Positions 10,477 to 10,550 of a stretch of 54,713 nt of DNA are shown here, in pieces. The stretch covers positions 74,545-129,257 of IMG/VR virus record IMGVR_UViG_3300037264_002389. One strand, 5' to 3'. The position numbers and the translations under genes are program-made. Source of the DNA: a virus. Lineage: Duplodnaviria; Heunggongvirae; Uroviricota; Caudoviricetes. Position 1 is the first letter of the stretch. Each line of letters opens with the position of its first letter. The notes beneath the pieces are model-generated. The model worked only from the letters and a program-made list of their open reading frames with translations. It was not told where the DNA came from and did not search any database.

Positions 10477-10550
10477 TGCTCCGGCTCGGATTCGCACCGA
10501 GATCTTCGACTTTAGAGGTCGCTATGTTGACTAGTTGCCACCACCGGAGC
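10477..10550 (-). tRNA. Amber suppressor tRNA (anticodon CUA)
   Basis: Reverse strand reads GCTCCGG-TG-GTGGCAACTAGTCAACAT-A-GCGAC-CTCTAAA-GTCGA-AGAT-CTCGG-TGCGAAT-CCGAG-CCGGAGC-A. Acceptor and T stems are perfect, the loop is 7 nt with CTA at 34-36, and no CCA is encoded. Confidence 0.85.

What the first reader, a model, noticed from the sequence alone, without database searches (positions are those of the whole stretch)
10477..10550. Stand-alone amber suppressor tRNA, apparently derived from the short-arm Leu family
Seen: the tRNA has a CUA anticodon and lies alone on the minus strand, outside the array. Its acceptor stem GCTCCGG/CCGGAGC-A is identical to Leu(UAG) at 23763. It carries the A18/G55 D-T loop covariation, which argues for structural selection. 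TAG is still used as a normal stop in many genes here, so this is not whole-genome recoding. Established: suppressor tRNAs are reported in large phages. Inference: it may insert Leu at selected TAG codons.
Basis: partly seen in the sequence, partly recalled or inferred. Interest (0 to 1): 0.72.

Follow-up and report, generated by a model that had tools for sequence, protein, structure and literature searches.

The report
Amber suppressor tRNA gating phage hydrolase
A large uncultured phage that otherwise uses the normal genetic code carries a real tRNA that reads the UAG stop codon, and its one clear target is a conserved UAG inside a nearby peptidyl-tRNA-hydrolase-like gene, a pairing that recurs in over a hundred other large phages.

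Summary
Window 10477-10550 (-) is a genuine tRNA with anticodon CUA, outside the tRNA array. Its acceptor stem and A73 are identical to the phage's tRNA-Leu(UAG), and it has the A18:G55 elbow.

The record is not TAG-recoded: TAG ends about 19% of ORFs. CheckV rates the record only 35% complete.

The tRNA is one half of a widespread two-part module. A small PTH2-type hydrolase-like gene lies 2.4 kb away (12935-13231, +) with one in-frame TAG at codon 36.
- That TAG sits in the same loop in 26 of 41 distinct sequences of the gene's subclade.
- Synonymous sites are saturated, while the part after the TAG stays conserved.
- A tRNA(CUA) lies nearby for 96 of 101 assessable PTH2-like sequences.

Most likely the tRNA reads this UAG, so the full-length hydrolase is made only while suppression works.

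"Derived from the Leu family" is only partly right. The tRNA body is closest (76%) to a PTH2-linked suppressor in another metagenome contig. It matches the phage's Leu tRNAs only in the acceptor stem, the A18:G55 elbow and a 13:22 mismatch. Leu insertion is plausible but untested.

This scan has found the same tRNA-PTH2 pairing many times on other DNA. I found no paper describing it.

The parts
10477..10550 (-). tRNA with anticodon CUA (amber suppressor type). It has a 7-nt anticodon loop CUCUAAA, discriminator A73, no encoded CCA, T-loop UGCGAAU (G55) and D-loop CAACUAGUCA (A18 G19).
   Evidence: ARAGORN; Rfam 47.3 bits; parsed arms; alignment A2.
12935..13231 (+). PTH2-type peptidyl-tRNA-hydrolase-like gene, 98 codons, with one in-frame TAG.
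   Evidence: Pfam PF01981 at 31 bits against a cut-off of 23. Full-length homologues of 95-105 aa. Profile match to solved Pth2 2zv3, E 1.9e-9.
13040..13042 (+). In-frame TAG (codon 36) in the variable loop before the invariant Trp. The context gatcca-TAG-gt is shared with L010 and L011.
   Evidence: The TAG lies in this loop in 26 of 41 distinct subclade sequences. It is kept in a ~90% identical strain variant.
11696..12052 (+). 118-aa ORF of unknown family. It is weakly similar to the ORF that sits directly upstream of the PTH2-like gene in L011 and L154, so it may be a module partner.
   Evidence: tblastn: 28% identity, E 4e-4; 34% identity, E 1e-7. No Pfam or PHROG hit.
10153..10461 (+). 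DUF4326 gene ending 15 nt from the tRNA. Homologues lie next to the PTH2-like gene in other contigs.
   Evidence: Pfam PF14216, E 1e-20. tblastn hits beside PTH2 in L155, L156, L158 and L140.
12207..12283 (+). tRNA-shaped RNA whose anticodon loop is closed by a GAAA-capped stem. It lies between the suppressor and the PTH2-like gene.
Evidence: ARAGORN 'tRNA-???
23763..23839 (+). tRNA-Leu(UAG), short variable arm, G55 type. Its acceptor stem and A73 are identical to those of the suppressor.

Best explanation
The element is a functional amber (UAG) suppressor tRNA. It belongs to a two-part phage module: a small PTH2-type peptidyl-tRNA-hydrolase-like gene plus a tRNA(CUA). In this phage the hydrolase-like gene, 2.4 kb away, carries a conserved in-frame UAG at codon 36, in a surface loop that tolerates many residues.

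Shown:
- The tRNA is canonical.
- The genome record keeps TAG as a stop.
- The UAG site is conserved under purifying selection.
- The tRNA-PTH2 pairing is nearly universal among relatives.

Inferred:
- The tRNA is transcribed, given CCA by a host enzyme, and charged.
- It then competes with RF1 at UAG36, so full-length hydrolase is made only while suppression is active. This would be a feed-forward or feedback coupling between suppressor activity and an enzyme that acts on peptidyl- or acyl-tRNA.
- The residue inserted is most likely Leu (about 40%). The tRNA carries exactly the acceptor stem, A73, A18:G55 elbow and 13:22 mismatch of the phage's own short-arm Leu tRNAs, and those tRNAs carry four different Leu anticodons on one body type.
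- The residue's identity probably does not matter at this site.

The primary benefit of suppression to the phage is not known.
For: The tRNA is real.

The PTH2-like gene is whole apart from one TAG. It aligns end to end with homologues of 95-105 aa, and all family-invariant residues after the TAG are kept.

The TAG is at the same codon, in the context gatccaTAGgt, in L010 and L011 (58-59% protein identity). Those two records do not share the neighbouring virion-protein or radical SAM genes.

Among 41 distinct sequences of the subclade, 26 have a TAG in this loop.

Synonymous sites are saturated (pS 0.8-1.0), while pN after the TAG is 0.27-0.37.

A ~90% identical strain variant, in a contig from a sediment RNA library, keeps the TAG amid 9 synonymous and 6 conservative changes.

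A tRNA(CUA) lies within 5 kb in 73 of 80 IMG/VR loci, and for 96 of 101 assessable distinct sequences. Only 1 of 45 phage loci fetched by unrelated tRNA patterns has one.

In G002 (247 kb, 91% complete) the suppressor is the only tRNA.

Two loci with an in-frame TGA at the same loop also have a tRNA(UCA) nearby.

The acceptor stem and A73 match Leu(UAG) 15 of 15. The closest tRNA, on L207, lacks the Leu-type features.
Against: Nothing here is experimental. Expression, CCA addition, charging and suppression are all unshown.

The RNA-library data are contigs. They show neither strand nor mature tRNA ends, and DNA carry-over cannot be excluded.

The tRNA has the lowest Rfam score in the window. 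It has a weak D stem (G10-U25, G13-A22) and a G27-A43 mismatch.

It lies antisense to all neighbouring genes, and no promoter stands out above chance: 11 promoter-like sites against 10.2 expected.

TAG ends about 19% of ORFs, and backup stops are not enriched after TAG. A strong suppressor should therefore be costly.

Most PTH2-like genes outside this subclade have no internal TAG yet still keep the tRNA, so gating cannot be the whole reason for the pairing.

The record is only about 35% of the phage. Other targets may exist.

The residues found at the TAG site in relatives are A, E, T, C and F, never Leu.
Confidence: 0.6

Rival explanations
1. It is a general-purpose suppressor. The tRNA reads through ordinary UAG stops of host or phage genes, to extend proteins or disturb the host, or it is a first step toward TAG recoding. 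On this view the TAG in the PTH2-like gene is a secondary consequence and not the purpose.
For: The recoding model of the preprint 10.1101/2021.08.26.457843 has suppressor acquisition preceding code change. Several TAG-terminated genes are in frame with the next gene, so fusions would form: the dehydratase-deaminase pair at 5427-3466 (-) and genome 49420-50154 and 50169-51152. Six of seven consecutive genes at genome 46.5-52.3 kb end in TAG. Most PTH2-like genes keep the tRNA without an internal TAG.
Against: Reading TAG as sense adds almost no coding coverage. Same-frame junctions after TAG (6 of 36) are no more frequent than after TAA or TGA (15 of 151), and the downstream genes have their own start codons. 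The near-exclusive linkage to one small gene family, and G002 with this tRNA as its only tRNA, point to a dedicated pairing.
Confidence: 0.17
2. It has a non-decoding role. The tRNA(CUA) would be a substrate, cofactor or decoy for the PTH2-like enzyme or for a host tRNA-targeting defence, and would not be used by the ribosome.
For: The pairing persists where the PTH2-like gene has no TAG. A clearly non-decoding tRNA mimic lies in the same neighbourhood. The suppressor tRNAs differ widely in body and discriminator (A 29, U 14, G 10, C 5), which is not what a single conserved amino-acid identity would give.
Against: The anticodon loop is a textbook decoding loop, CUCUAAA, in 41 of 58 distinct suppressors. 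In-frame TAGs recur in the partner gene at several independent positions. Loci with an in-frame TGA carry a UCA tRNA. These facts need decoding.
Confidence: 0.1
3. It is a decaying or inactive tRNA gene, and the PTH2-like gene is a recent pseudogene.
For: The tRNA has the lowest tRNA score in the window, D-stem and 27-43 mismatches, no CCA and an antisense position.
Against: The acceptor, T and anticodon stems are intact. The A18:G55 change relative to the L207 tRNA is a paired change, not decay. The TAG is conserved across saturated synonymous divergence with no further lesions.
Confidence: 0.06
4. It is a pyrrolysine tRNA, as ARAGORN labels it.
For: The CUA anticodon only.
Against: It has none of the tRNAPyl hallmarks as I recall them. 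It shows at most 5 anticodon-stem pairs with a G-A mismatch rather than 6, a 4-nt rather than 3-nt variable loop, two bases (UG) rather than one between the acceptor and D stems, and a 10-nt D-loop.
Confidence: 0.01

Closest known systems
Suppressor tRNAs of stop-codon-recoded phages (TAG read as Gln, 'code 15'; crAss-like, Lak and other phages; bioRxiv 10.1101/2021.08.26.457843, PMC7886860, PMC13037316)
   Same: A phage-encoded tRNA with a CUA anticodon in a phage that probably infects a standard-code host. An in-frame TAG makes a phage protein depend on it.
   Different: There is no genome-wide recoding here. One small gene family carries the TAG. None of these papers mentions a peptidyl-tRNA hydrolase link.
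CUA tRNAs of the standard-code jumbo phage XacN1 (PMC5852040)
   Same: Amber suppressor tRNAs in a jumbo phage that keeps TAG as a stop. That phage also encodes a peptidyl-tRNA hydrolase.
   Different: The authors read through 18 TAG stops and state that they could not identify target genes. Here a conserved target is identified.
E. coli supP (leuX) amber suppressor, tRNA-Leu with anticodon CUA (from my own knowledge, not checked here)
   Same: A Leu-type tRNA body with a CUA anticodon. LeuRS does not read the anticodon, so Leu would be inserted at UAG.
   Different: supP is a class II tRNA with a long variable arm, and it arose by a single anticodon mutation. This tRNA has a 4-nt variable loop and shares only the acceptor stem, A73, the elbow and the 13:22 mismatch with the phage's short-arm Leu tRNAs.
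prfB (RF2) autoregulation through an in-frame UGA (from my own knowledge)
   Same: A translation-factor gene whose own synthesis depends on how a stop codon inside it is decoded.
   Different: prfB uses a +1 frameshift and senses its own product. Here read-through would need a dedicated tRNA, and any feedback by the hydrolase on that tRNA is conjecture.

Membership tests
tRNA (Rfam RF00005) | Cloverleaf scoring above the family's gathering score, and called by a tRNA finder | tested here: met
   47.3 bits against 29, model positions 1-71; ARAGORN.
Amber suppressor tRNA | Anticodon CUA in a 7-nt loop with U33 and a purine at position 37 | tested here: met
   The loop is C-U-C-U-A-A-A.
Amber suppressor tRNA | Aminoacylated, and inserts a residue at UAG in vivo | not testable with these tools
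   Only indirect support: a conserved in-frame TAG in the linked gene.
Phage PTH2-like gene plus tRNA(CUA) module (found repeatedly by this scan; no paper found) | A PTH2-family gene within a few kb of a CUA tRNA | tested here: met
   The gene at 12935-13231 is 2.4 kb from the tRNA. The pairing holds in 73 of 80 loci and for 96 of 101 sequences.
Phage PTH2-like gene plus tRNA(CUA) module | An in-frame TAG in the PTH2-like gene | tested here: met
   Codon 36, conserved in 26 of 41 subclade sequences.
Phage PTH2-like gene plus tRNA(CUA) module | The tRNA lies on the same strand, directly beside the gene (the usual layout) | tested here: not met
   Here it is on the opposite strand, 2.4 kb upstream. 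L011 and L144 also have it on the opposite strand.
Stop-codon-recoded phage (code 15) | Many genes with in-frame TAG; low coding density under code 11 | tested here: not met
   Coverage is 0.907 under code 11 and 0.914 with TAG as sense. Only one convincing in-frame TAG was found. Caveat: the record is 35% complete.
Bacterial class II tRNA-Leu | A long variable arm | tested here: not met
   The variable loop is 4 nt. Four of the phage's five Leu tRNAs also lack the long arm.
This phage's short-arm, G55-type Leu tRNAs | Shared acceptor stem and A73, A18:G55 elbow, 13:22 mismatch | tested here: met
   15 of 15 with Leu(UAG); T-loop UGC...; D-loop UAG; G13-A22.
This phage's short-arm, G55-type Leu tRNAs | Shared D-arm, anticodon stem, 5-nt variable loop and T-stem (common descent of the whole body) | tested here: not met
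   Similarity outside the acceptor stem is at background level. The body is closer to the L207 suppressor, 76% overall with the T-stem 10 of 10.
tRNA-Pyl | 6-bp anticodon stem, 3-nt variable loop, one base between acceptor and D stems, small D-loop (features recalled from my own knowledge) | tested here: not met
   See the parsed arms.

The most novel reading that the evidence does not exclude
The suppressor and the PTH2-like enzyme form a self-contained homeostat. The hydrolase would act on the suppressor's own acyl- or peptidyl-tRNA, and its synthesis would need that tRNA, so suppression would be held at a set low level. In this phage the module's tRNA was also re-tailored to the resident tRNA class: acceptor stem and A73 of Leu(UAG), a G18-to-A with U55-to-G paired change, and a 13:22 mismatch. 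That would imply that A18:G55 'elbow-variant' tRNAs, seen in several unrelated large phages, are a selected class. They could be recognised, or evaded, by some factor that reads the tRNA elbow.
Probability: 0.22. Interest if true: 0.82.

Novelty: new variant of a known kind. Interest (0 to 1): 0.62.

Why it matters
Amber suppressor tRNAs in standard-code jumbo phages have been reported without any known target; XacN1 is an example (PMC5852040).

This case gives such a tRNA a specific, conserved client: a UAG inside a tRNA-hydrolase-like gene that almost always travels with the tRNA. That makes a natural suppression-dependent translational switch directly testable with two small genes.

It also shows a suppressor rebuilt at exactly the positions that define the phage's unusual short-arm, A18:G55 Leu tRNAs. 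This offers a handle on what determines identity or survival for that odd tRNA class.

The pairing itself is not new to this scan, which has flagged it on many other genomes.

Tried and rejected
- **Near-identical phage records:** none found by megablast. A tail-fibre-like protein gave only a partial hit to a Methylophilaceae phage.
- **Other in-frame TAG targets:** same-frame junctions after TAG turned out to be adjacent genes with their own starts. The GDP-mannose dehydratase and adenosine deaminase pair has an ATG 7 codons after the TAG. The protease, AAA ATPase and others are covered.
- **A run of 'TAG at codon 4' ORFs:** an artefact of tRNA sequences and upstream starts.
- **My codon-score screen:** too insensitive for short genes. 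It missed the PTH2-like gene itself.
- **Orthologues of this exact tRNA in IMG/VR:** two patterns found none. G55-type suppressors elsewhere (L099) are unrelated.
- **Phages with G55-type Leu tRNAs (L125 and others):** they have no PTH2-like gene.
- **The ~100-aa coiled-coil partner family upstream of most PTH2-like genes:** not found in this record.
- **T4-type late promoter word TATAAATA:** not enriched, 9 against 5.6 expected, and none lies before the tRNA.
- **CCA-adding enzyme and release factor genes:** not found in the 35%-complete record.
- **RNA-library contigs:** they cover the region, but cannot show that the tRNA is transcribed, its strand or its ends.
- **Backup stops after TAG:** not enriched.
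- **Literature on an A18/G55 tRNA elbow:** one search found nothing relevant.

Full report
**1. The observation**

ARAGORN finds 36 tRNA genes in the window. One has anticodon CTA, at 10477-10550 on the minus strand. Rfam's tRNA model scores it 47.3 bits against a cut-off of 29, over the full model. The + strand array begins 13 kb later, at 23535.

The parsed cloverleaf reads:
- acceptor GCUCCGG/CCGGAGC with A73
- U8 G9
- D stem GUGG/ACAU (G10-U25, U11-A24, G12-C23, G13-A22)
- D-loop CAACUAGUCA
- anticodon stem GCGAC/GUCGA, with G27-A43 unpaired
- anticodon loop CUCUAAA
- variable loop AGAU
- T arm CUCGG-UGCGAAU-CCGAG
- no encoded CCA

The acceptor stem and discriminator are identical to tRNA-Leu(UAG) at 23763, 15 of 15. 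The next best tRNA in the record has 12 of 15, and most have 3-8.

The T-loop has G at position 55, and the D-loop has AG where tRNAs normally have G18 G19. In the window this combination occurs in six tRNAs: the suppressor, Leu UAG, CAG, UAA and CAA, and Thr CGU. It occurs in none of the tRNAs with U55.

**2. The genome is not recoded**

The window is the last 54.7 kb of a single 129,257-bp IMG/VR record with 37 tRNAs. CheckV rates the record 35% complete, so all genome-wide counts cover about a third of the phage.

Greedy ORF coverage is 0.907 under code 11 and 0.914 with TAG read as sense. TAG ends 36 of 187 ORFs. The GDP-mannose dehydratase gene reaches the end of its Pfam profile before its TAG. 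Long same-frame extensions after TAG (6 of 36) are no more frequent than after TAA or TGA (15 of 151). Those I examined are adjacent genes with their own start codons. Backup stops after TAG are not enriched.

**3. The target**

I tested it. Read through its single TAG (13040-42, codon 36), it gives a 98-residue protein.
- It passes Pfam's PTH2 threshold (31 bits against 23).
- It aligns end to end with 12 homologues of 95-113 residues.
- As a family profile it matches solved archaeal Pth2 (2zv3) at E 1.9e-9 over nearly its full length.
- All invariant residues after the TAG are present (W40, F72, E74, P75, D76, T81, A82, L97).
- The TAG falls in a variable loop, where the homologues have F, A, A, C or T.

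**4. The TAG is conserved, not a recent lesion**

The two nearest IMG/VR relatives, L010 and L011, are 58-59% identical in protein. They have a TAG at the same codon in the same context, gatcca-TAG-gt.

Their records (234 and 247 kb) share neither the virion-protein gene nor the radical SAM gene that flank the module here.

Between the three genes, synonymous sites are saturated (pS 0.8-1.0), while pN after the TAG is 0.27-0.37.

A metagenome scan added 80 more loci. Over 160 loci there are 120 distinct PTH2-like translations. In the 'QACHAVAE' subclade that holds this gene, 26 of 41 distinct sequences have a TAG in the loop before the invariant Trp. Rare relatives have A, E or T there instead.

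Contigs from a sediment RNA library of another study hold the whole region at 99% identity or more. They also hold one contig from a ~90% identical strain. That strain keeps the TAG amid 9 synonymous and 6 conservative changes.

**5. The tRNA and the gene travel together**

In 73 of 80 IMG/VR loci with a PTH2-like gene, a tRNA(CUA) lies within 5 kb, mostly 4-600 nt downstream on the same strand. One further locus has a tRNA(UUA).

Counting distinct sequences with enough flank, 96 of 101 have a tRNA(CUA).

As a control, only 1 of 45 phage loci fetched by unrelated tRNA patterns has a CUA tRNA.

tRNA(CUA) is by far the commonest tRNA in these loci: 74 against 29 for the next. In about twenty loci it is the only tRNA. 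In G002, a 247-kb record rated 91% complete, it is the only tRNA in the whole record.

Two loci with an in-frame TGA at the same loop also carry a 96-nt tRNA(UCA) about 500 nt upstream.

In the subclade of this gene the tRNA usually lies 0.5-2.2 kb upstream, with small ORFs in between. It is inverted here, in L011 and in L144. The 118-aa ORF at 11696 weakly resembles the ORF directly upstream of PTH2 in L011 and L154. The DUF4326 gene that abuts the tRNA recurs beside PTH2 in four contigs. The stretch 10.1-13.2 kb is therefore the module's neighbourhood, spread apart by a radical SAM gene, a tRNA mimic and a 179-aa ORF.

**6. Where the tRNA came from**

The suppressors linked to PTH2-like genes are very diverse. 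There are 58 distinct sequences. Discriminators are A in 29, U in 14, G in 10 and C in 5. One has a long variable arm. That argues against a single conserved amino-acid identity. It fits TAGs placed at positions that tolerate many residues.

The closest tRNA to this one is the suppressor on metagenome contig L207. It lies about 950 nt upstream of a PTH2-like gene of the same subclade, and is 76% identical. All others are 70% or less. The two share U8 G9, most of the D arm, the variable loop (AAAU against AGAU) and all 10 T-stem positions.

L207 has a normal 4-bp D stem, G18 G19, U55 and a different acceptor stem. The window's tRNA differs from it at exactly the features it shares with the phage's short-arm Leu tRNAs:
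- the acceptor stem and A73 (15 of 15 with Leu UAG)
- A18 paired with G55, a two-sided change
- a 13:22 mismatch, which all four short-arm Leu tRNAs also have

Outside the acceptor stem, its similarity to the Leu tRNAs is at background level.

So 'derived from the Leu family' is better put this way: it is a module suppressor remodelled toward the resident Leu type, by conversion or by selection.

Four different Leu anticodons ride on that body type. Whatever charges it evidently ignores the anticodon. This is the basis for expecting Leu at UAG, and it is an inference only. By my own recollection, CUA tRNAs with A73 can also be mischarged with Lys or Gln in E. coli.

**7. Mechanism and rivals**

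I commit to the following, at confidence about 0.6. The tRNA is a working amber suppressor whose dedicated client is UAG36 of the PTH2-like gene. The full-length hydrolase-like protein is made only while the tRNA is present and charged.

Not shown: transcription of the tRNA, CCA addition, charging, suppression, and any activity of the protein.

Points against a strong suppressor: TAG ends a fifth of ORFs and there is no backup-stop bias. Also, most PTH2-like genes outside the subclade keep the tRNA without any internal TAG. The pairing must therefore have a reason beyond gating, perhaps that the enzyme acts on that tRNA or cleans up after suppression.

The rivals are a general read-through or pre-recoding suppressor, a non-decoding partner or decoy, a decayed gene, and tRNA-Pyl. 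They are scored in their own section.

**8. What is known**

Phage suppressor tRNAs are well known in recoded phages (10.1101/2021.08.26.457843, PMC7886860, PMC13037316). They have also been noted in the standard-code jumbo phages XacN1 and Atu_ph07 (PMC5852040, PMC6102473).

The XacN1 paper states that no target could be identified. None of these papers links suppressors to a peptidyl-tRNA hydrolase.

Within this scan the same pairing has been reported many times on other genomes, so it is not new to the scan.

What this case adds:
- a mid-gene TAG site conserved across a whole subclade
- a dispersed, inverted layout
- a suppressor re-tailored to the phage's A18:G55 short-arm Leu type

Noticed in passing
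window 23763-23839, 35633-35709, 32491-32567, 32403-32476, 30830-30904; also loci L125, L120, L111, L117, L123, L127, L132: A class of phage tRNAs has T-loop UGCAAxU (G55) and D-loop CAG or UAG in place of G18 G19. It includes short-variable-arm tRNAs with Leu anticodons (UAG, CAG, UAA, CAA), although bacterial Leu tRNAs normally have a long arm. The same class occurs in unrelated large phage contigs, for example L125 (343 kb) with Leu CAA, UAG and CAG plus Phe.
   Followed up: partly
window 38640-38714 and 39533-39606: tRNA-Arg(UCG) and tRNA-Arg(CCU) have T-loops UUAAAGU and UUAGACU (A at position 56) together with D-loops containing UGA (G18 A19). This is a second paired departure from the usual G19-C56 elbow pair.
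   Followed up: no
window 24571-24642 and 27695-27765: tRNA-Thr(GGU) and tRNA-Gly(GCC) have T-loop UCCGAUU (C at position 55) and no encoded CCA.
   Followed up: no
window 45529-45590 (+): Rfam tRNA hit of 52 bits, covering model positions 5-66 only, that ARAGORN does not call. It may be a truncated or split tRNA.
   Followed up: no
genome 46506-52265 (L003 8506-14265), outside the window: Six of seven consecutive + strand genes in a tail-fibre-like region end in TAG. Two of them are in frame with the next gene, so suppression would fuse them.
   Followed up: partly
window 5427-3466 (-): A GDP-mannose 4,6-dehydratase gene ends in TAG, and an adenosine-deaminase-family gene starts 7 codons later in the same frame. 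This is an unusual enzyme pair for a phage, possibly for nucleotide or DNA modification.
   Followed up: partly
L061 and L079 (IMG/VR): The PTH2-like gene has an in-frame TGA at the same loop position. A 96-nt tRNA(UCA) lies about 520 nt upstream and a tRNA(CUA) lies downstream. The long UCA tRNA could be a selenocysteine-type tRNA.
   Followed up: no
L009 5625-6767: A 46-kb contig with a PTH2-like gene that lacks a TAG also encodes a 380-aa class I release factor (PCRF and RF-1 domains) 5 kb away. No tRNA was found in the 10 kb fetched.
   Followed up: no
window 54614-54713 (record end): The record ends inside a GGTCCTACT (Gly-Pro-Thr, collagen-like) tandem repeat. GC rises to 0.59 over the last ~2 kb, so the assembly probably broke at the repeat.
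   Followed up: no
window 9679-10448: In the sediment RNA library X2, the contigs over the 3' end of the DEDDh exonuclease gene and the DUF4326 gene have word depth of about 80-150, against 15-25 for their neighbours. The DNA run is flat at about 12. This hints at real and uneven transcription, but contig depth cannot rank genes.
   Followed up: no
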